A DNA stretch of 64,000 nucleotides from the IMG/VR virus record IMGVR_UViG_3300001580_000006, positions 32,001-96,000 of that record; one strand, given 5' to 3'. Positions within the stretch are counted from its first letter, which is position 1; each line of letters starts with the position of its first letter. The translations under genes were made by a program, and so were the position numbers. This document shows positions 2,305-23,400 of the stretch, piece after piece. The notes under the pieces were generated by a model that did not search any database, had not been told where the DNA came from, and saw only the letters and a list, made by a program, of their open reading frames with translations. This DNA comes from a virus. Taxonomy: Duplodnaviria; Caudoviricetes.

Positions 2305-2313
2305 GATGATTAT

Positions 2314-2340: not shown

Positions 2341-2348
2341 AGCTTAAG

Positions 2349-3371: not shown

Positions 3372-3373
3372 TT

Positions 3374-3472: not shown

Positions 3473-3499
3473 CGGTAAAGTGGTATTCTACATAAACTT

Positions 3500-3892: not shown

Positions 3893-3897
3893 GCATT

Positions 3898-3926
3898 TTC
3901 GCTTTACACCTTAATTATGGTATAAT
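3898..3926 (+). promoter_or_regulatory. Sigma70/SigA-type promoter with extended -10
   Basis: TTCGCT-17 bp-TATAAT, with TG at the extended -10 position, upstream of 3954. Confidence 0.6.
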
Positions 3927-3953
3927 TAATCATACACAAGTCGTTGAGGGATA

Positions 3954-6310: not shown

Positions 6311-6329
6311 TTTGTGGAGGGAGAGAACC

Positions 6330-7488: not shown

Positions 7489-8074
7489 TAGAGGGCAATA
7501 TCAGGCTCAAAGAGGGGCCGGCCAAAACCTAGTAAAGGCGGTGGTCGGCCTTCGCCCTAAGTGCTCAGAGGAAACTAAGGCAAAAATAAGAGCGGCACTA
7601 ACTGGCAAAAGCTTTATTACAGATAGTGGTAGGGCAAGGATACGTGAGGCCAACAAAAGGCGTAAAGTTTCTCCAGAAACTAGGGCTCGGCTAAGCGCAG
7701 CGCTTATTGGAAACAAACGTAGTGCTGGTAAAAACCAAAAGCCGCACTCAACGTATTGTGGCCATAAAAATCACTTCTGGAAAGGTGGAGTTACTATTAT
7801 TAACCACGGGTTAAGACTGGCTGTAGTTGCTACTCACAAGTATGGCATATGGAGATTATCTATTTTTGTTAGAGATAGCTTTATCTGTCAGGATTGTAAG
7901 CGTAAAAATCTGCGCCTACACGCACACCATAAGAAGCATTTCCAGACTATTATTGACGAATACAACATAACCACAGTAGAGCAAGCAATAGCTTGCGAAG
8001 AACTATGGGATATAAACAACGGTATTACACTCTGCAAACGTTGTCACAGAAAGCGACATAATGCGCAACAATGA
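7478..8074 (+). CDS. HNH homing endonuclease (family 1, copy B) with NUMOD3-like repeats
   Basis: SEETKAKI and SPETRARLS repeats followed by the family-1 HNH core; ATGA overlap with the downstream gene. Confidence 0.85.
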   Translation: MADSRGQYQAQRGAGQNLVKAVVGLRPKCSEETKAKIRAALTGKSFITDSGRARIREANKRRKVSPETRARLSAALIGNKRSAGKNQKPHSTYCGHKNHFWKGGVTIINHGLRLAVVATHKYGIWRLSIFVRDSFICQDCKRKNLRLHAHHKKHFQTIIDEYNITTVEQAIACEELWDINNGITLCKRCHRKRHNAQQ

Positions 8075-11000
8075 TAAATAGGGATCCAAATAACGAGCAA
8101 CGGCAAACTAGTAGTAATCTAGTAAAGGCGGTTGCTGGTATAGGTTTTAGCTTAGTAGCCTTCACGCTTCTGGAGCGCCCGCTCAGAGGTGTGGGACTAG
8201 CTTTGTCTCAGAGGGCTGGTCTAGCAATGAAGGGTGCGTCTTCTACTTTAAGCACAGCTTGGAAAGCAGCTGCTAGCGAAGCCGTAGAGATGCCATCTGG
8301 AGTAGCCGGCACGATTGGTAGATCAGCTGCTGGCTGGAGCCGCACTGCAGAAGCGTTGGCCGCCGAGGGGCAAAAAGGCAAATACGTTCTTCCTGGTCCG
8401 GCAAGAGTTCTTGATCACTGGATGCGCGGCGCATCTGCAGAGTACTCTAACCTTAGACAAAGTGCTTCTGGGGCCTATAAATCATTTACATCTGCATGGA
8501 AGCCTGGAGGGGCTGCAGCCGAAGCTGCAACAAGAAATGTACCAGCCGAGCTACGTGAAAGAGCAACGTCTATTGGTAAGTTCAAGGCCTTCTTTGGCAA
8601 TACCAACGATAGGGGTATGCGCTGGGCCGGTGCCGGCCAGAAGTGGTTTGGTCAGTATCTCACAACCTTGCCCTCCTTCTATCTAGCTGAAAAAGCCACT
8701 GGTTTAATAACCAGACGCGAGGGCGAGTCTAAGAAGAGAGCTTTCTGGAATCTTCCAGGGCACGCTTACGATTTTGCCAAGTTTGCAGTTTCGTTTGCCC
8801 CAGGTGACCTTCTATTCCGTGGTGCTGGAAAAGCAATGAGCGCTGCTCTACATGGCGGGGCCTACAAAGTAGGTATGGCAGCCCGCACACCAGAAGGGCA
8901 GAAGATAGCAGGAAGCTTTGCTGGACTAATATCAAAAGCTGGTGACTTTGGATACAGGGTACAGCAGGCATCCAAAGCGTTTAGTGAAGGCTACCACTCA
9001 CACAACTCCTATACGAATTCTGGATCCACTGTTACTAGAGTTGCAGAAAAAGCTGCTAATGTATTTGCTGGTGCGCTGCGTGGGGCTACCAATTTCTTAG
9101 TAAAAGCTTCTGATAGCAGTATACGCCGTAAGTCCCTTTCATCTCAGGCTGCTAGCCGCCTACACGGGGCGTGGACAGAGGCCGCCTCCTTGGGTGGAAG
9201 CACTTCTGCTGCAAACCAGGCCGTAAGAATAGTTGGACGACAGGGTGGCTTATTTGAGTTTGGGCAGGTAAAGAAATATAATATGATGGAGCAGTTGCTT
9301 GGTGTTAAACAGCAGCGTCGCTCAGCAGATGATTTTATAGGGCTAGTCACCAAGGAGTATGGCCAAGGCGGCTTCGCTGATGCCGTGGCAGGGGTATTTA
9401 AGAGTGGAGCAGGTAGACGAAGCGGGTACCACGCCAACTACAGACTTCCAGGCGACTACACCCAAGGCGACCTATCTTGGATTCTACCAGAGAACTTAAA
9501 GAAGGGTGCCGCGTCGGTTCTTGCGTCTGCCTCTATTACAATACCAAAAATAGGGACGATACGCCCATTCCAGTTTATGCGCGTGCACAGCGTCCTTACC
9601 CCAAAACACTATATTGGCGGAGAACGAGACCAATACTTTGCTACGCTTGCCGAGCAGGACCCACGTCTGAAGAAAATAGCGGAAACATTCCACCCTGGCG
9701 ATCCAGCTAGTGTAGCATATAATAAAATAACAAGTGACAGTGGTATATTTTCCGGTGTTCAGGCTGAGCAACTGGGAACTCAGTTCCAGATACTTAAAGG
9801 CTGGAATCCTGGAGTTCTTCACGCAAGTAGAGGCGGCCTTACCGTGGCTGCTGGTGAAAAGTTGTTCTTTGTCAATAGTGGAGGAAAGGCTGCCACTCTT
9901 AGTGGGTTTAAAGCATTTCCAGTACAGGAACACGAACGCCGCATAATGAGCAATCTTATCTTTGGTAAAGCTGAGGATAAGTTTAAGACTACTGCCGAGC
10001 TGTCCGCAGAAAAGAGTTGGAATCCTTTACGTGGTTTGCTCGACGGTATTAATAGAAAGCTAGAGATCGGAAGATACGCCAATAAAGAAATGGCGTTTGG
10101 TGCGCACGCTCTTCCAACCGGATACCGCAATCTAACAGATAGACGATCTATTCTAAATATATTCTCAGCCGTACCTACTGATAATGCTGGCTGGGAAGCA
10201 GCTGTTGAACACTATAGGACTATTGCTGGTAGAACCCAGACTGGGGTTAGATCTAGGTCTGCTTGGTTTATCGAAGATTTAGCAGACTTAGTGCATAACA
10301 AAGAAGTACAAGACATAATAGGCAGTAAGGATGCTGGCCTAAGAAAAGCTATTACCGACGAAGCCGAGGCAGCGCGCTATTTGCGGGAGCTGTCTGTGTC
10401 ACAAACTGGCAAGGCGTCGAACCTAGTTGCAACTAGAGTTGGCTGGCTGGCCCGTGAGTTAAACGCAGATGTAGGAGCAGGAGTAGTATCATCCGGTCAT
10501 CGCGGTCTTAATCAAGGTCAGCTTGTAAGATCTGCGAGCTTATTTGCTGGCATAGAGAACCGCGCAGACAAGGCAGAGATATTTGACCAGCTGCTGTCGC
10601 TTAACAGTTTAGATAGAAGAGCAAAAGATTCTCTGCGTGTTGCCAAATTTGATGCTATGCTAGAGGATTCTCTACAGCAAAGGTTATTAGATCTAAGGGG
10701 TGACTTTACGCCGCAGAATATGCAGCGTCAAGCCTTTGAGGCACACCGCACCATCAAAGAAGCTATGATAGATAGCAACATCTCTGGCTCATTACACAGA
10801 ATGACCAAAGATAGATCTGTCAGCTTAGCGTTTGAAAACTCTAGTACGGCCATGGACTTCCTCAGCGATGAATATCGCAGGGGAAGACCCGGGTTAGCCA
10901 GTGTACTACTAGAGGACCGTGGCGCAACTAGAACAGTAATGGACTGGATAAACCCAACAGCTAGTGAGCAACTTACTAGAACCGGGTTGACCAGCCGTAT

Positions 11001-14000
11001 GTTTCTTGAGCGCTTTACCAACATTCTTGGCTTAAGGTCGGATAATGTTTCCAGCAACGCAGCATTATTTGGTAAGGTATTTACTCATAGAATTCTACCT
11101 ATGGCTGGAGCCATTTATGGGCTCAGAGCATTAGACACGTTCACCGACGCCAATCCTCTATTTGCTGGTACTATGCTAGATGAGGGTATATTTGTTGCTG
11201 CCGGCGAACAGGTTGCTAAGACACACTTGCTATCATCTAGGGTTCTGGATGCATCTGGTTTGACTCATGCTTCTAAGTGGGCAGAGGGTTTAATGCCAGG
11301 CTTTATAAACTCTCCGATGGCCCGCTTTACGCGAACAGTAGGTATGCCTTTGGCTGGGTATGGCCTAGGAATGAAATATGGTGGGCTGCATAGTGCAAAA
11401 ACAGGGCTAATAGCTGGTCTTGCATTAGATGCCACCTTAGGCTTTGGTTTAACCGATCTTACAAAGACACATGGCGAGCTGGTAGATGAATACGCCGGCC
11501 GTACAGAGGTTCCTGTCAAGAAAGGTCGTTGGTGGGAATTCGGAAAGACCCCATATGAAGGCACACAGATACAGTATTTCCGGCCGAATTGGTTTGCTAG
11601 GTTAAAGAGTCAGCATCAGTATACACCAGAAGGATTTGGCACTAAATGGGAATCGCTATTATTCCAACCAATTCCATTTATAGATGCTGCTCCTGGTATG
11701 TTAATAGAGCCAGACTGGTACGCTAGGAAGAACTACTTAACAAGACCGTATCCAGTCACATCAAATCCATTTAGCGAAGCAGCAATAGTAGGGCCTTTGG
11801 CTGGTGCTACCATTGGTAGTGTGTTAAACCCACCAAGCGTAATGCACGGGAGGGAGCTTGAATCAGCGCTAACTAATCCTGGCTCAAACGCCAACATGTT
11901 TGGCGGTACCGGGCTAGGAACTAGCGGTAACTATATGGCCGGCACACCACAAGGTGCACAAATTTCAGGGCCATCTGATTGGCAGCAGACGCTTAGTAGA
12001 CAGTTCTACTACGGCATAACCGAACCAGGTGGTTTATTTGGGTGGGCGGCTTCAAACTTGGCGGGCGGGCAGATGCCGCTAGCAAAACCAAATGAGCTGG
12101 CAAGCGCTACAGCAGCACAATCCCAGATTAAGAGGTTTTGGGATCTGAACCTTGGCGGATTTGGTCTCCTTAGCGAACCAATTCGTAGGCTACTTCCTAG
12201 AGAGCTGGCCGCCATCAACAAGATTAACCCAATAATGAATACAATGGCCGACTGGCTACCAGAGAATATGCAGCGAGGTGATCAGTTTGCTTCCATGCCT
12301 GAGGGATCGTTGCGGCTGCCTGGCACTGGTTATGAGACAATGCGTGCCGTAACGCATGCGTTTCCATCTCGTGAATCCCAGCTTGGCAAATCAATGTCTG
12401 AGATTGTGCAAGGTATGCTTGGTATGCCACAATCTATGTCTGAAGAACAAGAAGAAATAATGTCTGGTGGCACTGAAATTCACAGACAGATACAAGAGGA
12501 GCTAACTAGGCAAAACCTTGCTGTAGCAATAGAACAGAACATATATGACCCGTACCACGATATATCTGGTACAGCTGACTTAATACTAAGATATGGTCGT
12601 GAGCAAGCTGTTGGCGAAATCAAGACAAAATCTTTAGAAGCTATGCAGAAACTGTCGGGTCCGCAACAGTCGCACATGAGCCAGCTCAACTTCTACTTAC
12701 ATACTACAAAGATGCGTCGTGGATTCCTTATTTATGCAGCCAGAGAAGACCCGTCAGTGCGCAAAGTGTACGAGTTCAATTATTCTCGTAATATGTTTGA
12801 GCGTGATATGGCAAAGGTTGAGCAGGCTAGAGCTGCGGCAGCTGATTTGCTGACCACCGTTCCAACAACGCACGGAGCATCCTACTCCCACGCCGACCGT
12901 CTAAAGATTCTCGCTGACGTAGCACCAACCTCTGACCAGTACTACAGAGAATTGATGATGACTACAAAGCAGAGCAAGATGGGGCTAATGTCACCAGAGG
13001 AGCAGTACACATACGAGACTGCGTTAAAGCAGCGCAATAGCCAAATGCGCGGCATGGACTTGTATCCAAATAGGTTCCTTGGGAAGATGATGAGCCCAGA
13101 GGCTACTTATAATCTGCAGTCTGAGAACACTAACATTAAGGCTGCCTCCGAATATAATATAGCCGAACGAGCTATGGGTGCTGCCTGGGAAGGACTTCAG
13201 GCTGTGCCAAACCCGCTATCAACCAAGTTCTTTAACTATCAGACACCCGAACAGGCATATCAGCGAGCTCAGATGTATGGCAATCTGGAGCAATCCTGGG
13301 ATCACCCAGTACGTAGCTTTGTTACACCATATGGTCAAAGGTTTCTTGGTTCTAGCAATCCAGTATCAGGTGCTTGGAGAGGAGGTATGGCTGGCTTTCT
13401 GATGGGCGGTCCTGCCGGCGCTGCACTGTTAGGAAGCATGGGTGCTATGTATGGTGGCGGTTATAGTGCTGTAAAGGCCACTACTGGGTGGTCATACCTG
13501 CCAAGCGAAGTTAAAAAAGAACGTGCTTTAAATCAGACATTTGATAGGCTAGCTTTTGCGAAAGGCATGGTGGACAATCAAATGACGGGCAGCCCAGAGT
13601 CGTTTGAGATGGCGCAAAATACCTATACTGCGTGGAACACTGGTAGGTCTAGCTCAATGGCTAACTTTATGAGAGCTACTCCGCACCAGGAACGACAATT
13701 TATGGGGGCGTTTATTAATACCACCGATCCTGCCGAGCGCAATAGAATATTAAAGATGTTGCCTACTCCAGCCGCCGAGGGCTTAGAGCGTGTATGGAAT
13801 AACCAAGAAGGAGCCAGCTTTGCATCACACTCCGGAGCAGAAGACTATGTCGCCTCCCAAGGCATGATGAACCAAGCAAGAAACTGGCAGGCTTTCACTC
13901 CACAGACTATGCAGGCTACCAAAGTTAAGATGATTAAAAACGAAGGGCTGAAGGTCCAAGACTTTGGTCTTGGCTACGCGTCACAACTATATGGTGTACA

Positions 14001-14256
14001 AAACAACCCAAACGTTCCAGATTCTATGAACCTAAGTGATCCGCTAGGGGTGGGGGCTGCCCCATCGGTGCAGTTTGACTCAGTCCAAATTAAGAGACAA
14101 ATAGAGCAGATGCTTATTAATAGGGGTGCTAGAAGCATACAAGTATCGGTCAATGAAGTATCTGGCGTAGAGGCCAGAGGAACTCTCACTATTAACTGTC
14201 GCCAAGATAGAACACAAGACATGCTATCTGTGTTGAGATCAACGAGCAATGATTAA
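8071..14256 (+). CDS. Giant tape-measure/ejection-like virion protein with an internal PD-(D/E)XK (Cas4/RecB-like) nuclease domain
   Basis: 2061 aa, Ala/Gly-rich with glycine-zipper hydrophobic segments, at the tape-measure position. GTEIH...IEQ...SGTADL...GEIKT...QLNFYL...GFLIY lies at ~12470-12740. Confidence 0.7.
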   Translation: MINRDPNNEQRQTSSNLVKAVAGIGFSLVAFTLLERPLRGVGLALSQRAGLAMKGASSTLSTAWKAAASEAVEMPSGVAGTIGRSAAGWSRTAEALAAEGQKGKYVLPGPARVLDHWMRGASAEYSNLRQSASGAYKSFTSAWKPGGAAAEAATRNVPAELRERATSIGKFKAFFGNTNDRGMRWAGAGQKWFGQYLTTLPSFYLAEKATGLITRREGESKKRAFWNLPGHAYDFAKFAVSFAPGDLLFRGAGKAMSAALHGGAYKVGMAARTPEGQKIAGSFAGLISKAGDFGYRVQQASKAFSEGYHSHNSYTNSGSTVTRVAEKAANVFAGALRGATNFLVKASDSSIRRKSLSSQAASRLHGAWTEAASLGGSTSAANQAVRIVGRQGGLFEFGQVKKYNMMEQLLGVKQQRRSADDFIGLVTKEYGQGGFADAVAGVFKSGAGRRSGYHANYRLPGDYTQGDLSWILPENLKKGAASVLASASITIPKIGTIRPFQFMRVHSVLTPKHYIGGERDQYFATLAEQDPRLKKIAETFHPGDPASVAYNKITSDSGIFSGVQAEQLGTQFQILKGWNPGVLHASRGGLTVAAGEKLFFVNSGGKAATLSGFKAFPVQEHERRIMSNLIFGKAEDKFKTTAELSAEKSWNPLRGLLDGINRKLEIGRYANKEMAFGAHALPTGYRNLTDRRSILNIFSAVPTDNAGWEAAVEHYRTIAGRTQTGVRSRSAWFIEDLADLVHNKEVQDIIGSKDAGLRKAITDEAEAARYLRELSVSQTGKASNLVATRVGWLARELNADVGAGVVSSGHRGLNQGQLVRSASLFAGIENRADKAEIFDQLLSLNSLDRRAKDSLRVAKFDAMLEDSLQQRLLDLRGDFTPQNMQRQAFEAHRTIKEAMIDSNISGSLHRMTKDRSVSLAFENSSTAMDFLSDEYRRGRPGLASVLLEDRGATRTVMDWINPTASEQLTRTGLTSRMFLERFTNILGLRSDNVSSNAALFGKVFTHRILPMAGAIYGLRALDTFTDANPLFAGTMLDEGIFVAAGEQVAKTHLLSSRVLDASGLTHASKWAEGLMPGFINSPMARFTRTVGMPLAGYGLGMKYGGLHSAKTGLIAGLALDATLGFGLTDLTKTHGELVDEYAGRTEVPVKKGRWWEFGKTPYEGTQIQYFRPNWFARLKSQHQYTPEGFGTKWESLLFQPIPFIDAAPGMLIEPDWYARKNYLTRPYPVTSNPFSEAAIVGPLAGATIGSVLNPPSVMHGRELESALTNPGSNANMFGGTGLGTSGNYMAGTPQGAQISGPSDWQQTLSRQFYYGITEPGGLFGWAASNLAGGQMPLAKPNELASATAAQSQIKRFWDLNLGGFGLLSEPIRRLLPRELAAINKINPIMNTMADWLPENMQRGDQFASMPEGSLRLPGTGYETMRAVTHAFPSRESQLGKSMSEIVQGMLGMPQSMSEEQEEIMSGGTEIHRQIQEELTRQNLAVAIEQNIYDPYHDISGTADLILRYGREQAVGEIKTKSLEAMQKLSGPQQSHMSQLNFYLHTTKMRRGFLIYAAREDPSVRKVYEFNYSRNMFERDMAKVEQARAAAADLLTTVPTTHGASYSHADRLKILADVAPTSDQYYRELMMTTKQSKMGLMSPEEQYTYETALKQRNSQMRGMDLYPNRFLGKMMSPEATYNLQSENTNIKAASEYNIAERAMGAAWEGLQAVPNPLSTKFFNYQTPEQAYQRAQMYGNLEQSWDHPVRSFVTPYGQRFLGSSNPVSGAWRGGMAGFLMGGPAGAALLGSMGAMYGGGYSAVKATTGWSYLPSEVKKERALNQTFDRLAFAKGMVDNQMTGSPESFEMAQNTYTAWNTGRSSSMANFMRATPHQERQFMGAFINTTDPAERNRILKMLPTPAAEGLERVWNNQEGASFASHSGAEDYVASQGMMNQARNWQAFTPQTMQATKVKMIKNEGLKVQDFGLGYASQLYGVQNNPNVPDSMNLSDPLGVGAAPSVQFDSVQIKRQIEQMLINRGARSIQVSVNEVSGVEARGTLTINCRQDRTQDMLSVLRSTSND

Positions 14257-17200
14257 ATATAGTCAACGAAATCGTACATATCATAAGGACGACAAGAAGC
14301 TTTACCATATAGGCTTCTCTGCTGCTGGGCTTGGCCTAACAGCCTTTAGTGCGTGGTCTGGCTATAAGTACTTTATGCAGAAGTACGCAACCTCTTCCAT
14401 TGGCGTGGCTGGCTTTATTAACCATATGCGCAGCAACGTTACCAACATGGTGAGGCAGACTGTTGCTCCAAGCGGAGCTAAGGTTAGCAAAATAAGGTCC
14501 CCTTATATGATGGCTACTAGAGCGCTGCACCCAGAAATCAATAAATTGCATGATGTCGCCGTCGCCGTCCGCAGTAGAGTAGTGGTGGAGTCTTCTGAAA
14601 AACAACTAAGCAACTACTACTCACAGATTGCTAAGATAGTTAAGAAATACAACCTCAACATGACACTAGATGAAATTCGTACTGTCGTTGAGGAGTCGGC
14701 TGCTAATACACAACGCAACGCTTATAATTATATAAATGTTGGTTGGGAAAGCGTTTCTGTTGCTGATTCAAAGAAGAACGCAGCCAAGAGATTTCTACGA
14801 ACAATCGAAGAGTCAATCGAGGCCCCAAAGGCTAAGTTTAGAATGAATAGATATCGCCTATCTAATTATGATGAAGCAGTTAGAACTGGCGAACCACTAC
14901 AACGTAGTGTAGAATTTAAAAAGCATTGGTGGAGGCAATATAAGGATGAACTCAGCACCACTATACTAGCTGGTAGGCAGTCAATTACCGCCACCTCTAT
15001 TGGCAGAACTGCTGGACTTATATATGACAAGGAGGGCGATAAAGCCATAGGTTCTCTGGCAGAACCATTCCGTGCATCTATTGAGCAAGCCTTGGGGCTA
15101 GCTAAACGCACATCACTTACTGGGCAGTCAGGCACAGAGTTTATAAAGCAATATACTAGTGAGCTAGAGGCTAGGCAGTATGCGTTACGAGGAGTTGTTG
15201 GGTCGAGCATAGAAACTGGCACCAAAGATGGATATAACCTGCAGTCTATTATTAATCGAATGAAATCCAATCTAAATAGTCTGAAGAACTATAGACCAGA
15301 TGGCGTGCCAGTAATTGGCGATTATAACATAGAGGCCGTAGAGATGAAGGATGGCTATCGCTATCTAAAACTTACTATTGACGATAGCCCATATTATTTT
15401 GGCCTAACCAAGAAGAGAGGGTTTGACTTCAAGCGTTCTCCTTTTGCTATGGAGACCGACTTATCGCGTCTTACGTATGGCGCTAAAATGGGTACAACTG
15501 CCTCAGAACTAGAAATACTTAGAGACGTGACTGAGAGATTGAATTCACTTCCAGGCCAAATATTAGGTGAACGAAATAGACTATCTGAGAAGACGGGTCT
15601 TGATAAAGTATTTGACAAGTCCAACCTGCGGCTAAAAGTAAAAGATATATTAAACAGAACGCTGAAGTTTGATAGACATGAGACAGGAAGGGAAGCTACA
15701 AACTTCCAGTTTAATACCCGTGCTATGTCTAGAGCAAACGTTGCCCAAGATTGGTTTGGGCGGGTTATGACCGCACACAGCAACAACCCATCTAGGCTTA
15801 CTGAATCTCTAAAAACTATAATGGAGCTAGCTTCAGATAAGTCTAAGGTGGCTACAATAGATATCGAGACCGACATAAGCTCAAAAGGTAAGCCCATAAC
15901 CAAACTTGCTGTATACAAAGAGGGTGCAGCGCCGCTGGTTCTATACACCGAAGCGTTTGGAAAGCAAAGTGCTGAAGCCTATATGCTAACCCAGGGAGGC
16001 ATGGAAATAAAGAACGCCGGCACTAGAGCAGTATTACAGGTAAGAGACGCCCACTATATGGCTCTTGAGAAAGCAGGAGTTGTTAGCAAAAGCACCACGG
16101 CTATGGCACAACAGGTGCAGGATTATCTAAAAGGTGTTTCGACAGTTACATACCATGGTGGTAAAATCGGCGACATCACCCAGTTGGCGGCTGCAGGAAT
16201 TAACTTACAAGGCAAGTATAAGACAGTTGATAGCTACAAGCTAGCAAAATCGTTTGATTTGGGAAGCAAGTCTCTACAGGCTTTGATGGATCTGCACGTT
16301 ACAGAACAAGAATTTGCAGAGATACAACTACAAGCTGAAAATGGGATAATGAAGCATCTTCCAGGAGAAGTACGTGGAAAAGTGCAAGCACACCTCCACC
16401 AACCTGAAATAGATGCCATGGTTACTCATAAATATATGTTTGGCCGTAAGGGCGTAGTTAACCAAGTATTAACGGAGCTTCTTGGTAGCTCAACATACAC
16501 AAATGCCCAAATTGGGGAACTTAGAGCCGTACTTGGCGAGGGGTTTGCCACTACTGAGCTGCTGGCCAAGATTAGACAAAGGGTTGGAGCAAAGATGGCG
16601 TCGCTGTCATACTTAAGCTCTACCGGTAAGAAACAGAAGGCGCAGACTATACTTAATTTAAGATCACCTATGACTGCGCCACAGGTAACTGCACAGTTTT
16701 TTAAAGACCACCATCCGATAATAGTTAATGAAAAGCTTGCTGGAAGGATGAGAATAACCGGACTATCCTCCGCCTTTTCTATACTTGAGGATGGGTCTAT
16801 TAATGAGTCTCAGGCTAGTCGTCTATATGAAAGACTAGCAAAACCAGGCATGAGCCAGATGTTCACCGGTGATGCAATTAAGTCAGACGTTATGACTATC
16901 ATAGGCCACCCCGGAATGCAGTTAGGCGGTGCTGTTGTTTCTAAGACTGCTGCTAAATCATTGATGCCTGTAGTAGAGCACACTGTAGATTTGGAGCCAG
17001 GCGACTCGCTATCAGGATTTGTTATAGATTATCAAAAGCTAATTAACAAGCCATCACGCACACAAGCCGACGAATTGCGCTTGTCAGATCTTGGTAGAGA
17101 GTTAAAGCGTGGATTTGCTAAGCGCGCCAATATATCAGACGAGGACCTGGTGGCCAACTTTGACAACATCACTTTCGATATTGGAACCAAAGAAGGAGGG

Positions 17201-20194
17201 CTACCGAGGGTATCGCTGCAGACACCGGTTGGTATAGAGGGCAGCTCCATAATTATGCAGCGCGGTAAGTTTACATTATCCCCGGCCAACAAACAGTTTG
17301 ATGCACTTTTCAGATACTCACGGCGCAAATATGGCCACGAGGCAGCACTGGCCGTTGGCGGAGAATTCGGCCGTACAAACTCCATGCAGCTATTTATTGA
17401 GGGAACTGCAATGAACGCAGTTGCCTCTGGTAGAGACTCTACGAGCAGACAGGTCAGGGACAAAACTGCAGCAACTATGAGGTTACTTCGTAAGGTAGAA
17501 AGAAACCCAGATGACCTCGATTCCTACCAGAAACTTCTTCAAACTACTAAGGATCTACGTAAAGAACTAGGCCTGAGATATACTGCTACTAATAATCTAG
17601 GATCGGCGGAAGAGAAGCAGATGCTAAGACAGCACTTCCAGTTACCTGAATCTGATGCTCGTTGGGACAAGATTGTTGATACCTTGGTAAACGATAAGGC
17701 TGGTGAAGGTGTTATTCTAGAGCGTTTTGCGCAGAAGGGTTCGAAGCCGCTATACTACGCGTTGCAGTCGGAGTTATGGAAAACAAAGAGTCCACCGTGG
17801 TTTCAACTTTATGCTAACGAAGGAAACGTTAGGGCTGGTATTAAAATCACCAATGACATGTTGGTTGGTTTGCAAAATACGCACATGGTATCATACTTGA
17901 AAAGCCAGCTGGGGCAGACTAGAGAGTATCGTGAGATAGCCAACCTTAACGACGTTATGCGCAAGATGGGCGTAAGCGCCCGCGGCAACAGTGGCGGAAT
18001 GATGGCTCAACTCAGCACTGCGGCAGAAATGCCAGAGAATGCTGGCTTCTTCCAAGATGTCACTGATAGAATAAATGGTATGATACATCAGGTTAGGGAG
18101 GGCGGTGCCAGGGGCTCTGACATTATTAAAGCACGAAATGAATTGCTCGACGAAATACTGAAGGCCGGCAAGGTTCCAATATATACTGCACCAGGAATTA
18201 AGGTTCCAGTAGTGGTTAGCAATTTGGTAAACCCTGATCCTGTTGGCAACGTCCACCTTGGCGAAGGAGCCAGGACCTTATATAGTGCTATGAGCGAGGC
18301 TATTACTAGCCACAACGGTAGAGTTATTGACTGGGCCGAGAACGCGTCTATGGTACTTCCAAGGGCTCTTAATGAATACGGAGACTGGCTAAAAGATGTA
18401 ATTAAATCCGGTCGTCAGCTTGAGGGATCATACATGCCCGGCTTTGCTGCAAAGCCTATGGCTGATGTAAACTTCTATGATAAGGTAAAGACCGGTCAGT
18501 CGCCATTCACTATTGGTGTTGGAAAGAAAGAATGGAACACTATAGAGAAGCATTTTGGCAACCCAGCAGACCTAAAGTCTTGGCTGTTTCGTTACCCCAC
18601 CACTGGCTCCCCAAGCATTGTAAATTTCGTTCAAGCTGAGGCCGAGTCAGGCATATTTGTAAATCCTGTGCTAGAACTACTAATGAATATAGACACCGAT
18701 GATGATAAAATTTATACATCAATTTACTCTAAGAAACTCGACCAAGAAGCAATTAGTTCACTAGAAAAAGAAATAGCCGGCCTAAGTGGCGACAGCACTA
18801 GATTACCTATTGCAAAGAGGGAACTATTTAACATAAAACGACATATGGGTAGAATGGAGAAGGAGCTTAGTCGTCGCTCCATTACGCAGGCTCAGCAGTA
18901 TAATCACCTAGTCCGTACCTTTGAAAGGTCCAATGCAACCACCGCAGAGGGAATCCTTGCCGAGATGCAGGGAGCATATACGCAATTTGCAGGAAAGGAA
19001 TATAATATACTGCAGACAGTGGCGGCCTCTCGTCTGCCAGTTGTGCCACTGGTTGGTAACGAACTAGGTATGTTTGATACCGAGTCAGGCAGGCTTATAA
19101 CTAAGAGGTTCCAAGGTACCACAAATGCTGCAATATTTGGTGTGTCTAAGTCACACGCCCGGGCACTAAAAAGTATAGCCTCTAGAGCAGGGATGACGGC
19201 TAGTGAAGAGATTGTTAGGGCAGCCGCTGGCTTTGAGGACCCAGTAATAGAGGCATTGCGCACCCAAGGCTTGATTGGGCAATATACCAACGTAATGACT
19301 AATCTTACAGATTTGTACGGTTCTATGCGCAGAAACCCAGAAGCGCGTTGGGGCCTACTAACCTCCTGTAGGTTAGATGGTGAGACTATGGGTGATGCCA
19401 GCAAAAGGTTCAATACTGACATTGAGCTACTTCGTACTATGACAGATCTTCGAGAAGATGTCATAAAGCAAGTGAAGGGTAATGATCAACAGAAGTTAGG
19501 AACCTATCGTCAGATGGTTAATAAGCTGTCTAAAATAGGTACTAGTGAGAAGCTAGCTGAAGGCGGCGAGCCATGGCTCGAAGAATTGGCTGGACAGTTT
19601 GGCCCAAATGCCGAGAAAATGATTGAGGCTATGAATAGAGTCAACCGCGTGCTCTATGCTCATACTGGTGGAGCAGGAGTTAGAGATAAACTATTTGGTC
19701 GCCCTCTATACAACGAACTCGGTGAACGTATGTTTATGAAGGACTTTACAGAATTATCTGCTGGCTCCATTATGGCAAAGAAAGTCGAAGAGCAGGCGTC
19801 TAAGTCGAAACTTAAACTACCCAGAGAGGTAGCTATAGGTTTGGGTGTTCTTGGCCTAGTTAAGTTCTTCTCCCCCAATCAGATGAAGGTGTTGGGTGAA
19901 ATGCCTGGACAAGGCGGAGAGTTGTGGGACTACAGAAGCGGTAAGTCAGAACTACCATTCTTTACCCCAGTAGATGTGCCGCAATATACCTGGGAGTCTG
20001 ATGCCAGGGTATCTGGAATTGGCCTATCGGACCGTTTTAATAAGATAGCGGCATCTATTATACCAAAGATCCGTCGTGGATACGGAGATCACTCTAATGC
20101 CAGAACAGCTAGCAACGTTACTTATGACAATCGTCGACGCCTAAGTAGCCGGTTTGATTCTAAGTCGGTGTGGCAGGACGTCAATAGATTCTAA
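14249..20194 (+). CDS. Giant virion protein: putative single-chain two-barrel RNA polymerase fused to a DEDDh 3'-5' exonuclease
   Basis: Beta'-like barrel IGVGKKEW...WLFRYPTTG...GIFVNP....MNIDTDDDKIY (about 18431-18727). DEDDh motifs IDIET / HGGKIGD / HQPEID (15860-16414). Hydrophobic segments near both ends. Confidence 0.65.
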   Translation: MIKYSQRNRTYHKDDKKLYHIGFSAAGLGLTAFSAWSGYKYFMQKYATSSIGVAGFINHMRSNVTNMVRQTVAPSGAKVSKIRSPYMMATRALHPEINKLHDVAVAVRSRVVVESSEKQLSNYYSQIAKIVKKYNLNMTLDEIRTVVEESAANTQRNAYNYINVGWESVSVADSKKNAAKRFLRTIEESIEAPKAKFRMNRYRLSNYDEAVRTGEPLQRSVEFKKHWWRQYKDELSTTILAGRQSITATSIGRTAGLIYDKEGDKAIGSLAEPFRASIEQALGLAKRTSLTGQSGTEFIKQYTSELEARQYALRGVVGSSIETGTKDGYNLQSIINRMKSNLNSLKNYRPDGVPVIGDYNIEAVEMKDGYRYLKLTIDDSPYYFGLTKKRGFDFKRSPFAMETDLSRLTYGAKMGTTASELEILRDVTERLNSLPGQILGERNRLSEKTGLDKVFDKSNLRLKVKDILNRTLKFDRHETGREATNFQFNTRAMSRANVAQDWFGRVMTAHSNNPSRLTESLKTIMELASDKSKVATIDIETDISSKGKPITKLAVYKEGAAPLVLYTEAFGKQSAEAYMLTQGGMEIKNAGTRAVLQVRDAHYMALEKAGVVSKSTTAMAQQVQDYLKGVSTVTYHGGKIGDITQLAAAGINLQGKYKTVDSYKLAKSFDLGSKSLQALMDLHVTEQEFAEIQLQAENGIMKHLPGEVRGKVQAHLHQPEIDAMVTHKYMFGRKGVVNQVLTELLGSSTYTNAQIGELRAVLGEGFATTELLAKIRQRVGAKMASLSYLSSTGKKQKAQTILNLRSPMTAPQVTAQFFKDHHPIIVNEKLAGRMRITGLSSAFSILEDGSINESQASRLYERLAKPGMSQMFTGDAIKSDVMTIIGHPGMQLGGAVVSKTAAKSLMPVVEHTVDLEPGDSLSGFVIDYQKLINKPSRTQADELRLSDLGRELKRGFAKRANISDEDLVANFDNITFDIGTKEGGLPRVSLQTPVGIEGSSIIMQRGKFTLSPANKQFDALFRYSRRKYGHEAALAVGGEFGRTNSMQLFIEGTAMNAVASGRDSTSRQVRDKTAATMRLLRKVERNPDDLDSYQKLLQTTKDLRKELGLRYTATNNLGSAEEKQMLRQHFQLPESDARWDKIVDTLVNDKAGEGVILERFAQKGSKPLYYALQSELWKTKSPPWFQLYANEGNVRAGIKITNDMLVGLQNTHMVSYLKSQLGQTREYREIANLNDVMRKMGVSARGNSGGMMAQLSTAAEMPENAGFFQDVTDRINGMIHQVREGGARGSDIIKARNELLDEILKAGKVPIYTAPGIKVPVVVSNLVNPDPVGNVHLGEGARTLYSAMSEAITSHNGRVIDWAENASMVLPRALNEYGDWLKDVIKSGRQLEGSYMPGFAAKPMADVNFYDKVKTGQSPFTIGVGKKEWNTIEKHFGNPADLKSWLFRYPTTGSPSIVNFVQAEAESGIFVNPVLELLMNIDTDDDKIYTSIYSKKLDQEAISSLEKEIAGLSGDSTRLPIAKRELFNIKRHMGRMEKELSRRSITQAQQYNHLVRTFERSNATTAEGILAEMQGAYTQFAGKEYNILQTVAASRLPVVPLVGNELGMFDTESGRLITKRFQGTTNAAIFGVSKSHARALKSIASRAGMTASEEIVRAAAGFEDPVIEALRTQGLIGQYTNVMTNLTDLYGSMRRNPEARWGLLTSCRLDGETMGDASKRFNTDIELLRTMTDLREDVIKQVKGNDQQKLGTYRQMVNKLSKIGTSEKLAEGGEPWLEELAGQFGPNAEKMIEAMNRVNRVLYAHTGGAGVRDKLFGRPLYNELGERMFMKDFTELSAGSIMAKKVEEQASKSKLKLPREVAIGLGVLGLVKFFSPNQMKVLGEMPGQGGELWDYRSGKSELPFFTPVDVPQYTWESDARVSGIGLSDRFNKIAASIIPKIRRGYGDHSNARTASNVTYDNRRRLSSRFDSKSVWQDVNRF

Positions 20195-20200
20195 GTATTT

Positions 20201-20228
20201 TTGATTACAATCACTTATGTGGTATAAT
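20201..20228 (+). promoter_or_regulatory. Sigma70-type promoter, probably giving a leaderless mRNA
   Basis: TTGATT-16 bp-TATAAT with extended TG; the ATG at 20234 is only 5 nt downstream of the -10. Confidence 0.6.
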
Positions 20229-20233: not shown

Positions 20234-20428
20234 ATGTTGAACATCGTAATTTCTTGTGGGTATGATGGCGATGCTGGGGCTTTAGCCTCAGCGATTGCAG
20301 ACTACATTAGGTCGCAAAGTGGCCAGGACATAACTGTTCGTGTAAATACACTTGATGACCCAAACACCGTGTCCAAGATAGCTGCACTAAACGCAGCACA
20401 ACTAGTTAAACGGAGACCCAATATTTAA
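20234..20428 (+). CDS. Small hypothetical protein (64 aa)
   Basis: Fills the gap between the promoter and the hub gene; TAATG coupling with 20428. Confidence 0.55.
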   Translation: MLNIVISCGYDGDAGALASAIADYIRSQSGQDITVRVNTLDDPNTVSKIAALNAAQLVKRRPNI

Positions 20429-23400
20429 TGGCATTTAAAGGCAAAGATAGTAGCAACGTACGCTGGGCAAGCCTACATGCAGTTCTAAAAGATAAGCTTA
20501 CTAAGCTCGAAGAACTTGTCAGCAAAGACGTCGATATGCCTCAGTTCCAAATAACTGACGGCCTTCGCACTATTCGCGAGCAGGCAGAGCTGTATGCTAA
20601 GGGCCGCACTAAGCCAGGTACTATAGTAACGTATGCGAAAACCCCACAGGCCCACGGGTTTGGTTTAGCCGTAGACGTAGTTCCACTTAAGGATGGTAAG
20701 AAGGACTACAACAACAAATCCGCTTACGATAAGTTAGCAGCCTATGCAACACAAGTTGGATTAAGATCTGGGCATAATCAGCCGTTTAAGAAGAAAGACG
20801 GATCTCTTTTTTATGACCACCCTCACATAGAGGTGTGGAACTGGAATACATATGTAGATAAAAACGCACAGCTCATCGGTGATGAGTTTGTATTTGACTC
20901 CAACGTACAGCAGAACCTTGATGTATATAGCCAGAATGGATTCTTCACAGACGCTAATTCTACCACTGTTTATGGTCTAGGTGCGTACGGCGACGCCATA
21001 ACATCGAAAGTAGATGTGTTGGTAGAAGATGATGCCTATTTCTATGAGGCTGTATCTAGCGCCAATGCTTATAAGGACGGTGCGTTTAGATTTGGCGATG
21101 TGTGGCTGTCCGTTCCACCAACAACCATAGATATAGCCAGCTTTTCAGCAAACCAAGAAATACCTGCATTTCGTACTCCTGGCAACCCAACTAAGCAGGG
21201 TGATCTTAGGGAGATGCGGTTTGATGTGCAGATGATATTTCCGCACGCCCAGACTATCAACGGCGAGCTAAGACCACTTATTGCACAGTTCTTTGCATCA
21301 CCCATTATTAGTGTTGAGAACCAGTTTGTGCAGATGGCTGCTGCTCCAGACATACAGCCAGCAGAAAGTGAAGTTAACTATGAACTAGAAAAGCAAACTA
21401 GTGCAGCTGACCTTACTGGTGCTAACTTCGCTACGGAGATCGACGCCTGGCAAAAGACGCAGGCAGATAATGCCAAGCTGTTTAGGGAAGGCAAATTTAA
21501 GGAACTAATAGATAAGTTTGACGGTGTGCCCAAATCGGAGAAGGAGCAGGTTGATCGTCTAATAGCCAAAGCCAAGAAAGACAGGAAGGTTCGATATTCT
21601 AGGTATGGGTGGGCGCTCAATGATGAACCACTTTTGTTTTGTTTCAAAGAATTACACATAAATACTGTATCAGGTTTTCCATCAGCTATTCAGGCACACG
21701 CCGTACTAAACTTGTTTAACTCACGCCCATTTTGCAAGCAAGTAGCGTGGCTAAAGGATTGGAGTGACGTCTCTGCACAGCTAACATACGGCGATCAACT
21801 TAAAAGTTGCTTACGTGAGGCTAAGGACGCAAGTACTGTAGAGCCCCCTGTAGTAAATCATGTATCTAGCCCAGAATTCTCAACTCCTTATAAAGACTAT
21901 TACTCTCATTGGCTTATAGAAGGCAAGGCTCTGCGCGAGGCTGATGGGCACACAGTGCCACCACTTAGTTCTAGCTTGAGTTCACCGCTACACCAAACCC
22001 TTGGAATGCTGTATCTAGACGAGTTTGATAATACCAACTTTGTCAATAACATTGTGATGTCTTGGCGAGGCGCGTCAAAAAGTATGCTTCAGTCAGAGCT
22101 GGAAAGAATTCGTAATACCAAAAACCGCCTTGTTAAAATTAAGGCTCAATTGTTAGATTATAGGGCAAAAGACTTTCCTGATATATCTAGTGGTTTTAGG
22201 GATGGTATAGCTGCTCTGTGGAAAACTCCAGCACTGTTAAAGCAATATTTTGATAGAGTGGTAGAAAAAACTGGTGGTCTTGTTTGGATAACAGCCGCAA
22301 CCTTAAAGGGTGATCTTGGGTTTAACAGCAAAGACGCAGAAGATAAATTCAAAAAATACTTTGTCAACACTACCGGCATAACAGCTTATGATTTGTATCA
22401 ATACGTAACTACTAAGGTTGAGGATAAAGACAAGCGCTGGCTTCTTACTAGGCTAACTGATCTCGTACTTCGAAGTAACACCACCCAGGAGCACGCCAAG
22501 ATAATAGATCAGTGTATTGAGCTTTCCAATGAAGCCGATAAACAACTCGGTGTATATAAAGATGGCGCCAGTTCTATCCACAGTATAGACCTATCAGAAT
22601 ACAGCGGCACGACCATATCTGGTATGTCAGCTAGCATAGCAAATAAATTTGCTAGAATACCGCTGTTGTCTGAGTTCATACCTACTTATCAACACATGGG
22701 TAGGTCAAACATTAGTGTTACAATGAGTCTTCAGACAGAAAATCTGGAGATAGTATCTGAGCTGCGCAGGCTAGAACTGGAGACATCTATAGCTCAGCAG
22801 ATGAGAGACCTTATTACGCCAATAGAGTTACAAAAGTTTATTCCAGGAAGTGTAGTCGCTGTTACTGGTAATGCGTTCTTTAGCATGTTAGGTGTACATA
22901 ACGTAGTGGTTGGCAATGTTCAAACCTCCACTGTTCCTAATAGACCAGGACTGTGTAACGTAACTATTGAATTTATTCAAGCAGACTATGTTCTTCACGA
23001 ACACGAGCAAATTCAACCATATAATATACTTCCAGCTAATCTTGTTGCTATCACAGCAAAAAGTATTCTTGATGCCGGTGATACAAAGGTAGTTGGCTGG
23101 CTTAATACGATTAAGAATTCTAAACCTGATTTATACAATCAGTTAGACTGGGAAGTAATGCCAGCATATAATGGGGTATTGGATCTTATTAAAGAATATG
23201 GGCAGCAGATAAATTATGATGTTGTTAATAAACTAACTACTGAGGCTACAGCCACAGCACCGCCATCCACAAAATCTAATGTATTATCTATAAGTGGCAC
23301 AACAAGCGACAATTTTTGGCAGAGTGCCGTAGAAAGAGCAGAACAGGCAACGCCACGCCCATATACTATTGGATCTGAACTTAAGAAAGTAAATACTTTA

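What the first reader, a model, noticed from the sequence alone, without database searches (positions are those of the whole stretch)
14249..20194. Hidden single-chain two-barrel RNA polymerase in a giant tail-module protein, with a non-canonical DTDDD active site
Seen: MPGFAAK...FTIGVGKKEW...WLFRYPTTGSPSIVNFV...GIFVNPVLELLMNIDTDDDKIYTSI at about 18431-18727. This aligns element by element with the beta' double-psi barrel (CGLPKK...LNRAPTLH...IQLHP....NADFDGDQMAV). The R1448-to-D1482 spacing is 34, versus 35 for E. coli R425-D460. Downstream, GLIGQYTN (~19270) and EDVIKQVKG resemble bridge/trigger elements of YonO/RdRP-type enzymes (weaker). Established: virion-packaged single-chain two-barrel RNAPs occur in crAss-like phages, and a tape-measure-fused one in Thermus phage P23-45. 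Inference: this myovirus injects an RNAP encoded in its tail operon. The G-to-D change in DxDGD is unusual.
Basis: partly seen in the sequence, partly recalled or inferred. Interest (0 to 1): 0.9.

Follow-up and report, generated by a model that had tools for sequence, protein, structure and literature searches.

The report
Tail-module giant protein with RNA polymerase core
A 1981-residue protein encoded among the tail genes of an uncultured 223-kb contractile-tailed phage contains the catalytic core of a cellular-type RNA polymerase plus a 3'-5' exonuclease, so the phage probably delivers its own transcription enzyme with its DNA, using a protein family that has not been described in the literature.

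Summary
ORF 14249-20194 (+) encodes 1981 aa with WLFRYP (R1448, P1450) 34 residues before NIDTDDD (D1482/1484/1486).

About 20 homologues exist, all metagenomic and only 13-27% identical. They were found through an unrelated conserved C-terminal motif. Every member with this region keeps one RxP...DxDxD at the aligned position; several have canonical DFDGD or DVDGDQM. The fourth position varies (G/A/F/Y/D/R), so DTDDD is normal for the family.

Two things were not shown. The second (beta-like) barrel rests only on a basic-residue motif near 985-1062. The bridge and trigger helices found no support.

Residues ~500-760 are a DEDDh exonuclease. The flanking giant genes are homologues of virion proteins gp145 and gp147 of Bacillus phage 0305phi8-36, and this gene sits where that phage has its putative tape measure.

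The scan had already found this family on other DNA (e1-5377006, the 219-kb phage encoding P0020).

Verdict: a new family of tail-associated two-barrel RNA polymerase.

The parts
14249..20194 (+). Gene for the 1981-aa giant protein P0001 ('giant B'), the middle one of three giant tail-module genes
   Evidence: ORF list and translation. An 8-nt overlap with the upstream ORF suggests translational coupling.
15746..16528 (+). DEDDh (DnaQ/RNase T-like) 3'-5' exonuclease domain, aa ~500-760. Motifs: DIET at 537-540, H..GD, VDS and HQPEID.
   Evidence: In alignment A11 the D, E, H, D, D columns are invariant. The A11 profile hits DEDDh exonucleases, RNase T and DnaQ in the PDB (E 8e-5 to 0.06). Pfam itself finds nothing on P0001.
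17201..17434 (+). Candidate beta-like barrel segment, aa ~985-1062. It carries R1005-G-K1007 and GEFGR1042TNSMQ. This assignment is inferred, not shown.
   Evidence: The family keeps a basic / basic / basic pattern spaced about 9 and about 29 residues apart. This resembles E. coli beta K1065, K1073 and R1106, recalled from memory. Profiles A7 and A12 gave no RNA polymerase hit.
18416..18730 (+). Catalytic beta'-like double-psi beta-barrel, aa ~1390-1494. Key residues: MPG (G1398), R1448-Y-P1450 and D1482-T-D1484-D-D1486.
   Evidence: These columns are invariant in 19 homologues. Profile A6 aligns in register to beta' NRAPTLH...NADFDGDQ; 27 of 28 PDB hits are RNA polymerase large subunits or the P23-45 enzyme. 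P0001's own model matches double-psi barrels at residues 61-165 of the model. A confident model of homologue P0019 supports the same fold.
19262..19300 (+). Conserved block TQGLIGQYTNVM (aa 1672-1684) downstream of the barrel.
   Evidence: It aligns with the family consensus QKGxVGxxTSY, with both G nearly invariant. There is no sequence link to a bridge helix.
19709..20191 (+). C-terminal module, aa ~1821-1981. It has a Gly/Ala-rich hydrophobic stretch followed by the family hallmark FFxPNQMxxLGxxPGxGGExW...ELPxxxPxDxPxYTW.
   Evidence: This is the best conserved part of the family and the only part detectable by phmmer. The A2 HMM scores 1.9e-53 on P0001. Its function is unknown.
8071..14256 (+). 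Giant A (2061 aa), upstream partner. It has a PD-(D/E)XK/Cas4-like nuclease segment at aa 1447-1567.
   Evidence: PHROG hits. blastp to the 0305phi8-36 virion protein gp145 gives E 3e-31, colinear.
20428..27099 (+). Giant C (2223 aa), downstream partner. It has an N-terminal cell-wall peptidase/endolysin-like domain.
   Evidence: PHROG endolysin hits. tblastn hits to L-Ala-D-Glu peptidases and to Bacillus jumbo-phage virion proteins. blastp to 0305phi8-36 gp147 gives E 8e-11.

Best explanation
P0001 belongs to an undescribed family of ~1800-2300-aa proteins. They are encoded in the tail module of large, mostly uncultured contractile-tailed phages, at the position where the related Bacillus phage 0305phi8-36 has its putative tape measure.

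The C-terminal half contains a cellular-type ('two-barrel') nucleotide polymerase core. This comprises a beta'-like clamp region followed by the catalytic double-psi barrel. The barrel's loop D1482-x-D1484-x-D1486 would bind the catalytic Mg2+, and R1448/P1450 lie on the preceding strand. About 450 residues upstream is a segment that probably supplies the beta-like barrel with its basic residues. A DEDDh 3'-5' exonuclease sits in the N-terminal half.

The most likely working model has three steps:
1. The protein is built into the tail or virion together with its two giant neighbours, a nuclease-bearing one and a cell-wall-hydrolase-bearing one.
2. It enters the cell with the DNA.
3. It transcribes the first phage genes independently of the host polymerase. 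Later genes use host-type promoters.

What is shown: the conserved motifs, the beta'-like fold (on a homologue and weakly on P0001), the exonuclease homology and the synteny.

What is inferred: the second barrel, RNA (rather than DNA) synthesis, virion packaging and injection.
For: 1. Family and invariants. The homologues were found only through the C-terminal motif, plus loci. Every one whose sequence covers this region still carries one DxDxD at the aligned site, preceded 32-45 aa by R[YHFP]P and by an invariant G. Examples are GGDVDGDQMF (P0020), GGDFDGDQIF (P0013), KADFDGDI (P0008) and GDHDGDI (P0007).

2. Sequence profile. Profile A6 against PDB sequences gives 28 hits. Of these, 27 are beta', Rpb1, A190, the AR9 and phiKZ beta' subunits, an RPB1 homolog (8q3b) or the P23-45 tape-measure RNA polymerase. 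The alignment is in register at RxP and DxDxD. The best E is 0.09 (the earlier profile A1 gave a similar result).

4. Fold of homologue P0019 (aa 634-1394, mean pLDDT 77.6). The three Asp lie in the loop between H729-734 and E743-748.
- Foldseek against the PDB gives 270 hits at E<=1e-3, and the top 50 are all RNA polymerase largest subunits (best 1.7e-6).
- In the ESM Atlas, 9 of the 10 rows shown are RNA polymerase or RdRP clusters, including a viral fused Rpb2_6+Rpb1_2 cluster.

5. Context. The gene order is sheath, tube, giant A, giant B, giant C, baseplate. The same order is seen in four other contigs or genomes. Giant A and giant C are homologues of 0305phi8-36 gp145 and gp147. gp145 and gp146 were detected in virions by mass spectrometry according to the GenBank record; the gp147 record carries no such note.

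6. No other polymerase. No Rpb1, Rpb2 or T7-type RNA polymerase was found elsewhere in the 223-kb genome (though the T7-family search had no positive control). There is no paralogue of the barrel.
Against: - No statistically significant sequence match to any RNA polymerase exists. The best profile E is 0.09. hhalign against a crAss alignment gives E 0.08.
- P0001's own model is poor (mean pLDDT 38.5). The good model is of a homologue only ~15% identical.
- The second barrel was not detected by sequence profiles and was not tested structurally.
- The bridge helix was not detected.
- There is no evidence of packaging, injection or activity for this protein.
- sigma70-like promoters occur in this genome (plus first-reader notes), so host polymerase is clearly used for at least some genes.
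- Two-barrel enzymes also include RNA-dependent RNA polymerases and archaeal DNA polymerase D. The attached exonuclease would fit a DNA-synthesising enzyme as well.
Confidence: 0.72

Rival explanations
1. It is a two-barrel polymerase, but its job is not early mRNA synthesis. It could act as a primase or primer-making enzyme, as an RNA-dependent or DNA-synthesising polymerase working with its own 3'-5' exonuclease (as in proofreading replicases or PolD with its nuclease partner), or in genome-end processing after injection.
For: - A 3'-5' exonuclease is attached in most members. It comes in two unrelated forms at two different positions: DEDDh at ~aa 500-760 in P0001 and its kin, and an RNase_H_2/PolB-exo-like domain just before the clamp in P0011, P0015, L010 and L016. 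This points to selection for exonuclease plus polymerase together.
- Other nucleases travel with the module: a PD-(D/E)XK insert in P0014, a Cas4-like domain in giant A, and Endonuc_Holl genes next door.
- QDE-1 and RDR2 are among the structural matches.
Against: - The best structural matches are DNA-dependent RNA polymerase largest subunits, including the clamp.
- PolD does not appear among the 50 rows shown.
- All known virion-borne two-barrel enzymes (crAss gp66, P23-45 gp96, phiKZ/AR9 virion RNA polymerases) are transcriptases.
Confidence: 0.13
2. It is a structural tail or ejection protein (tape measure or inner tail protein) whose polymerase-like core is a catalytically dead relic, or a double-psi barrel used for another purpose such as cell-wall binding, as in expansin-, RlpA- or MltA-type barrels.
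For: - It sits at the position of the putative tape measure of 0305phi8-36.
- The most conserved part is the C-terminal motif, not the polymerase core.
- 0305phi8-36 gp146 itself has no DxDxD.
Against: - The three Asp, RxP and the Gly are the only invariant residues across the core at 13-27% identity. That is the pattern of a working active site.
- The matches extend to the beta' clamp and are highly specific for RNA polymerases.
- No lytic-transglycosylase-type hits were found.
Confidence: 0.1
3. The match is a chance motif in a fast-evolving giant protein, and there is no polymerase fold at all.
For: - All E-values against RNA polymerases at the sequence level are above 0.05.
- A DxDxD occurs by chance about once in three proteins of this size.
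Against: - The motif is positionally invariant in ~20 homologues retrieved by an independent region.
- Two independent models give double-psi barrel or RNA polymerase matches, with Foldseek E down to 1.7e-6.
Confidence: 0.03

Closest known systems
Thermus phage P23-45 gp96, virion RNA polymerase fused to the tail tape measure protein (PDB 8H2M/8H2N; Chaban et al. 2024, PMC10770324)
   Same: - It is a single-chain two-barrel enzyme encoded in the tail module at the tape-measure position.
- Sequence similarity to other polymerases is limited to the DxDxD neighbourhood.
   Different: - There is no detectable sequence homology.
- gp96 belongs to a siphovirus with 5002 aa, with the polymerase at the N-terminus and a long ruler behind it.
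- Here the virus is a myovirus, the polymerase core lies in the C-terminal half of a ~2000-aa protein, an exonuclease domain is present, and a distinct C-terminal motif ends the protein.
- Whether P0001 measures the tail is unknown.
Cellulophaga phage phi14:2 gp66 and crAss-like virion RNA polymerases (PDB 6VR4)
   Same: - A giant (~2200 aa) virion protein next to other giant cargo genes.
- A non-canonical fourth position in the motif (DFDID/DFDVD followed by K-hydrophobic-Y, compared with DTDDDKIY here).
- A colinear MPG...RxP...DxDxD pattern.
   Different: - The profile-profile score is not significant (E 0.08-0.15).
- crAss phages are podoviruses that pack the enzyme in the head.
- gp66 has no exonuclease domain and lacks the C-terminal FFxPNQM motif.
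Largest subunits (beta', Rpb1, A190, A') of multisubunit RNA polymerases, including jumbo-phage AR9 and phiKZ enzymes
   Same: - The alignment is in register at NRAPTLH and NADFDGDQ.
   Different: - The protein is a single chain, with no separate beta, alpha or omega subunits found.
- Identity is ~10%.
- It is embedded in a tail-module giant protein.
- No Pfam RNA polymerase domain is detected.
Bacillus phage 0305phi8-36 gp145 / gp146 / gp147 (NC_009760)
   Same: - The same three-giant-gene block lies between tail tube/chaperones and baseplate.
- gp145 and gp147 are sequence homologues of giants A and C.
- gp145 and gp146 are recorded as virion proteins by mass spectrometry.
   Different: - The middle protein gp146 ('hypothetical tape measure', 2537 aa) has no DxDxD and no detectable similarity to P0001.
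- According to Iyer et al. 2021 (PMC7824862), that phage has a YonO-like polymerase (ABS83659.1). I did not locate it; gp145 and gp146 carry no DxDxD.

Membership tests
Two-barrel (double-psi beta-barrel) RNA polymerase superfamily | A beta'-type double-psi barrel carrying an invariant DxDxD metal-binding loop | tested here: met
   DxDxD is invariant in 19 homologues. It lies in a loop in the P0019 model. Barrel matches come from both models, and Foldseek E to beta' is 1.7e-6.
Two-barrel (double-psi beta-barrel) RNA polymerase superfamily | A conserved R-x-P on the strand ~35 residues before the Asp triad (beta' NRAPTLH) | tested here: met
   R1448 and P1450 are 34 aa before D1482. P is invariant, and the R position is R in 17 of 19 and K in 2 of 19. 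The HMM alignment to beta' is in register.
Two-barrel (double-psi beta-barrel) RNA polymerase superfamily | A second (beta-type) double-psi barrel supplying conserved basic residues that face the Asp loop | tested here: inconclusive
   A conserved basic/basic/basic pattern exists at P0001 ~1005, 1007 and 1042. Profiles A7 and A12 hit no polymerase. The model's N-terminal part was not resolved by the fold searches. Atlas rows 8 and 10 span it only weakly.
Two-barrel (double-psi beta-barrel) RNA polymerase superfamily | A bridge helix and trigger loop after the catalytic barrel | tested here: inconclusive
   A conserved block QKGxVGxxTSY (TQGLIGQYTN in P0001) exists. Its profile finds no polymerase, and this region of P0001's model has pLDDT below 50.
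Two-barrel (double-psi beta-barrel) RNA polymerase superfamily | Template-dependent NTP polymerisation | not testable with these tools
   This needs biochemistry.
Virion-delivered phage RNA polymerases (crAss gp66, P23-45 gp96, N4 vRNAP, phiKZ/AR9 vRNAP) | The protein is present in the virion and ejected into the host | not testable with these tools
   Support is by context only. The gene lies in the tail module, and its flanking genes are homologous to 0305phi8-36 gp145 and gp147; gp145 is recorded as a virion protein by mass spectrometry.
crAss-like vRNAP family (phi14:2 gp66) | Detectable sequence or profile homology to gp66 relatives | tested here: not met
   tblastn of P0001 and of P0015 found no crAss-like RNA polymerase. 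hhalign against an 11-member crAss alignment gave E 0.08 and probability below 1%. Only the three short motifs line up.
DEDDh (DnaQ / RNase T-like) 3'-5' exonucleases (domain at aa ~500-760) | Exo I (DxE), Exo II (H/N..D) and Exo III (H-x4-D) motifs, plus profile similarity | tested here: met
   The D, E, H, D, D columns are invariant. The profile hits DEDDh enzymes at E 8e-5, RNase T at 0.004 and DnaQ at 0.06. Pfam finds nothing on the single sequence.
Tail tape measure proteins | A position between tail chaperones and baseplate hub, a long helical ruler, and length proportional to tail length | tested here: inconclusive
   The position is met. Most of the chain is taken up by globular enzyme domains. 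There is no similarity to 0305phi8-36 gp146, and the tail length is unknown.

The most novel reading that the evidence does not exclude
A whole clade of large contractile-tailed phages distantly related to Bacillus phage 0305phi8-36 has replaced or rebuilt its tape-measure-position protein. The new protein is a self-contained injected 'transcription and nuclease machine'. It is a beta-beta'-fusion-like RNA polymerase, closer in architecture (clamp plus barrel) to cellular enzymes than to the YonO or crAss types. It is permanently coupled to a 3'-5' exonuclease that has been acquired at least twice independently. If so, this would be a third, independent invention of tail- or virion-borne two-barrel transcription. 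It could also be a living example of a minimal single-chain cellular-type RNA polymerase with built-in RNA 3'-end cleavage or proofreading.
Probability: 0.3. Interest if true: 0.85.

Novelty: new variant of a known kind. Interest (0 to 1): 0.72.

Why it matters
Virion-delivered two-barrel RNA polymerases are known from only a few systems: crAss-like podoviruses, the Thermus siphovirus P23-45, and the phiKZ and AR9 jumbo phages. Each discovery changed how early phage transcription and the evolution of cellular RNA polymerases are understood.

This family adds four things:
- It extends the principle to large myoviruses of the 0305phi8-36 lineage.
- It places the enzyme at the tape-measure position.
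- It couples the enzyme to exonucleases.
- Its beta'-like part includes a clamp.

The family is invisible to Pfam, PHROGs and BLAST, so such phages are currently annotated as having no polymerase of their own. A compact (~900 aa) single-chain core with a canonical DVDGDQM or DFDGDQ site, as in homologues P0020 and P0013, would be an attractive object for structural and mechanistic work on minimal RNA polymerases.

Tried and rejected
Searches with P0001 itself that found nothing:
- Pfam and PHROGs.
- phmmer against PDB sequences.
- tblastn against 50,697 phage records. P0015 gave one unrelated weak hit. The P0019 barrel gave none even at E 10.

Searches for more family members that added little:
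- The word-based protein search on aa 1300-1800 found nothing.
- Searches with C-terminal alignments added only P0018, P0019 and P0021.
- IMG/VR scans found only one other genome.
- The full-length search of G001 with P0012 missed the homologue that the C-terminal profile then found.

Structure and embedding searches that were weak:
- AlphaFold of P0001 1330-1830 was poor outside the barrel.
- The ESM Atlas embedding search of aa 940-1800 gave only unnamed viral clusters below the noise level.

Tests of the other polymerase elements:
- Beta-like barrel profiles A7 and A12 against the PDB gave no polymerase hit.
- Bridge-helix profile A13 gave only chance lactate dehydrogenase hits.
- hhalign of the family against gp66 alone, a crAss alignment and MaMV-DC ORF65 gave E 0.08-0.15. 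The short motifs were in register but the scores were not significant.

Rejected idea: I considered whether 0305phi8-36 gp145 or gp146 is the YonO-like polymerase mentioned by Iyer et al. 2021. Neither has a DxDxD.

Not attempted: no complex prediction or read mapping was tried.
Full report
**Setting**

The window is bases 32001-96000 of a 223,464-bp IMG/VR phage record that is 94% complete. The + strand carries a contractile-tail module:
- A sheath gene (2-1531; the full gene encodes 1223 aa).
- Tail-tube paralogues interrupted by HNH endonuclease genes.
- Three giant ORFs of 2061, 1981 and 2223 aa (8071-14256, 14249-20194, 20428-27099).
- More HNH genes, a baseplate wedge/J-like gene (29446-30714), and further large structural genes.

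The finding concerns the middle giant ORF, stored as P0001. Its ATG overlaps the stop codon of giant A by 8 nt.

**Checking the observation**

MPGFAAK is at aa 1396, WLFRYPTT at 1445, NIDTDDD at 1480-1486, GLIGQYTN at 1674 and EDVIKQVKG at 1736. R1448 is 34 residues before D1482.

On its own this means little. A DxDxD is expected about 0.3 times in a protein of this size, and two other ORFs of the genome carry similar strings. P0001 has no Pfam or PHROG match, no match to PDB sequences and no tblastn match in 50,697 phage records.

**The family**

An exhaustive phmmer search of 1.84 billion cluster representatives with aa 800-1981 returned 16 proteins. Apart from a fragment identical to P0001 itself, they matched only the last ~100-170 residues. 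That region is a Gly/Ala-rich hydrophobic stretch followed by a striking motif, FFxPNQMxxLGxxPGxGGExW...ELPxxxPxDxPxYTW.

Ten hits are full-length (1858-2297 aa). Although they were retrieved through this unrelated region, every one has a single DxDxD about 450-730 residues from its C-terminus. More members came from:
- A degenerate DNA pattern search (the full gene is P0020).
- A metagenome scan.
- Word-based searches.

This gives about 20 distinct proteins, all from metagenomes. They are colinear over their whole length at 13-27% identity to P0001.

In the 19-member alignments, the invariant residues in the core are G1398 (in M-P-G), P1450, D1482, D1484 and D1486. R1448 is R in 17 members and K in 2. 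Several members have the textbook site: GGDVDGDQMF (P0020), GGDFDGDQIF (P0013), KADFDGDI (P0008) and GDHDGDI (P0007). The fourth motif position is G, A, F, Y, D or R. P0001's DTDDD is therefore ordinary for this family, just as crAss-like enzymes use DFDID or DFDVD.

**Link to RNA polymerases by sequence**

A profile of the ~145-column barrel region (A6) searched against all PDB sequences gave 28 hits. Of these, 27 are one of the following:
- Bacterial beta'.
- Rpb1 or A190, or an RPB1 homolog (8q3b).
- The beta' subunits of phages AR9 and phiKZ.
- The P23-45 tape-measure RNA polymerase.

The alignment is in register: the family's 'vvtRhPit' lies over 'VLLNRAPTLH', and 'kgDfDgDqi' lies over 'NADFDGDQM' (an 11-member profile behaved the same way).

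The E-values (0.09-1.7) are not significant one by one, and the hits are not independent of each other. This is corroboration, not proof. hhalign against phi14:2 gp66 and against an 11-member crAss alignment also lined up MPG, RxP and DxDxD-K-x-Y, but at E 0.08-0.15.

**Link by structure**

AlphaFold2 on P0001 1330-1830 with 19 sequences was poor overall (mean pLDDT 38.5). Residues 69-165 of the model (aa 1398-1494) reached pLDDT 50-74 and showed a strand/helix pattern that fits a double-psi barrel. An exhaustive VIA-align search matched exactly this part (model 61-165) to:
- P23-45 gp96 (6.2 and 5.6).
- Designed and Cdc48-type double-psi barrels.

The second job used homologue P0019 (aa 634-1394), which has closer relatives, as the query. 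It gave mean pLDDT 77.6. In that model:
- The RxP ends strand E689-696.
- The three Asp (model 738, 740, 742) sit in the loop between helix 729-734 and strand 743-748.

The fold searches on this model gave:
- **Foldseek against the PDB:** 270 hits at E<=1e-3, with the first 50 all RNA polymerase largest subunits (best 1.7e-6).
- **ESM Atlas:** 9 of the 10 rows shown were RNA polymerase or RdRP clusters, including a viral cluster of 911-aa proteins carrying both Rpb2_6 and Rpb1_2.
- **BFVD:** the best matches were unnamed long viral proteins, a 'minor tail protein' and ORF65 of Microcystis phage MaMV-DC, ahead of jumbo-phage and giant-virus RNA polymerase subunits.

The beta'-like half is therefore well supported for the family. 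Through the invariant columns, that support carries over to P0001.

**What is not shown**

*The second barrel.* About 475 residues upstream of the Asp triad, the family keeps a pattern of three basic residues inside a beta-rich segment. In P0001 these are R1005-G-K1007 and R1042 in GEFGRTNSMQ. In the better conserved subfamily the motifs read tRlRS..G..K/R and PLDFIVsGsIGKRmT. By eye this resembles the beta-subunit motifs RHGNKG...PVDIVLNPLGVPSRMN. The distance to the Asp triad also fits a compact beta-beta' fusion. However, profiles of this segment found no polymerase. In the model, part of the segment has pLDDT below 50, and the fold searches were dominated by the beta' part. I count the second barrel as inferred.

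*The bridge and trigger helices.* P0001's TQGLIGQYTN does align with a conserved family block QKGxVGxxTSY. Its profile hits only lactate dehydrogenases by chance.

**Other domains**

Residues ~500-760 of P0001 form a DEDDh exonuclease. The motif residues are invariant in nine members: DIET, H-x5-D as in HNxxFD, IDT/S, and H-x4-D. The profile finds DEDDh exonucleases (8e-5), RNase T (0.004) and DnaQ (0.06).

The members that lack this domain carry a different exonuclease (RNase_H_2/PolB-exo type, Pfam E 2.4e-25) inserted just before the clamp. P0014 has a PD-(D/E)XK-like insert near its C-terminus. A polymerase-plus-exonuclease combination therefore seems to be selected for, and it has been assembled at least twice.

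**Context and delivery**

The gene order giant A, giant B, giant C, baseplate recurs in four other contigs or genomes. In some of them, small genes for a Holliday-junction-type endonuclease and an M15 peptidase lie in between. In this window the peptidase appears to be fused to the N-terminus of giant C.

Bacillus phage 0305phi8-36 has the same block:
- gp145 (1930 aa).
- gp146 (2537 aa, 'hypothetical tape measure protein').
- gp147 (1903 aa, 'endolysin').

gp145 and gp146 are recorded as virion proteins by mass spectrometry. Giant A is homologous to gp145 (E 3e-31, colinear) and giant C to gp147 (E 8e-11). P0001 has no detectable similarity to gp146, and gp146 has no DxDxD.

P0001 therefore sits at the tape-measure position of a conserved virion module. 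That is the basis, by inference only, for expecting it to be in the particle and to enter the cell.

No other RNA polymerase was found in the genome, although the T7-family search had no positive control. A sigma70-type promoter with an extended -10 lies just downstream of the gene. Other such promoters were noted elsewhere in the genome. The host enzyme is therefore probably used for part of the programme, as in P23-45, where the virion enzyme makes only pre-early transcripts (PMC10770324).

**Literature and earlier notes**

Full-text searches found the P23-45, crAss, N4 and jumbo-phage multisubunit systems. They found nothing on a family like this one. The jumbo-phage survey of Iyer et al. 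2021 states that, outside the phiKZ-like group and two YonO-bearing phages, jumbo phages encode no RNA polymerase.

This scan had already met the same family on other DNA. Finding e1-5377006 describes the 2250-aa protein of the 219-kb phage, which I reached independently as P0020. It came to the same reading.

**Verdict**

The 'non-canonical DTDDD' is a family norm. The second barrel, the bridge and trigger elements, packaging and activity remain to be shown.

I file this as a new variant of a known kind: a virion- or tail-associated single-chain two-barrel RNA polymerase. My confidence is about 0.7 that it is an active injected transcriptase, and about 0.85-0.9 that it is a genuine two-barrel-type polymerase core of some kind.

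Noticed in passing
L036:1-5034 (-), Microcystis phage MaMV-DC ORF65L (KF356199 49224-54257): This 1677-aa 'hypothetical protein' of a cultured cyanophage carries GIQRTPMG...NEGDADGDQ at aa ~1320-1358. Its BFVD model matched the P0019 model (Foldseek E 8.9e-7). It looks like another unannotated two-barrel polymerase. It is not in the tail module and lacks the C-terminal motif.
   Followed up: partly
window 1591-8074: The tail-tube region holds three tube-like ORFs (1591-2304, 2349-3371, 3954-5798; phrog_9206, the family of 0305phi8-36 tube proteins gp140/141). They are interleaved with at least three HNH or homing endonuclease genes (3500-3892, 5795-6310, 7478-8074). More HNH genes lie after giant C (27707-28393, 28855-29376). 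The density of homing endonucleases in this structural operon is unusual.
   Followed up: no
window 20428-20860 (giant C aa ~7-145): In relatives (L003, L004) an M15 cell-wall peptidase is a separate ~130-aa gene between giants B and C. Here a peptidase/endolysin-like domain is fused to the N-terminus of giant C.
   Followed up: partly
window 20201-20228 (+): A strong sigma70-like promoter with an extended -10 (TTGATT-16-TG-TATAAT, 10 of 12 matches) lies in the 233-nt gap between giant B and giant C. Four promoter-like sites were found in 400 nt, against 0.8 expected.
   Followed up: no
window 12409-12771 (giant A aa 1447-1567): A Cas4 / PD-(D/E)XK-type nuclease segment (phrog_1706, E 7e-17) lies inside giant A, the homologue of virion protein gp145 of 0305phi8-36. 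If giant A is packaged, this would be a virion-borne nuclease.
   Followed up: no
P0014 aa ~1800-1870; P0011, P0015, L010, L016 just upstream of the clamp: Family members carry different accessory nuclease inserts at different sites. P0014 has a PD-(D/E)XK-like insert. The other four have an RNase_H_2/PolB-exo-like exonuclease. P0001 and its kin have the DEDDh domain.
   Followed up: partly
L010:1109-4918: This family member has only 1270 aa. It starts within the region before the beta-like segment, so it may be a split gene or a truncated form.
   Followed up: no
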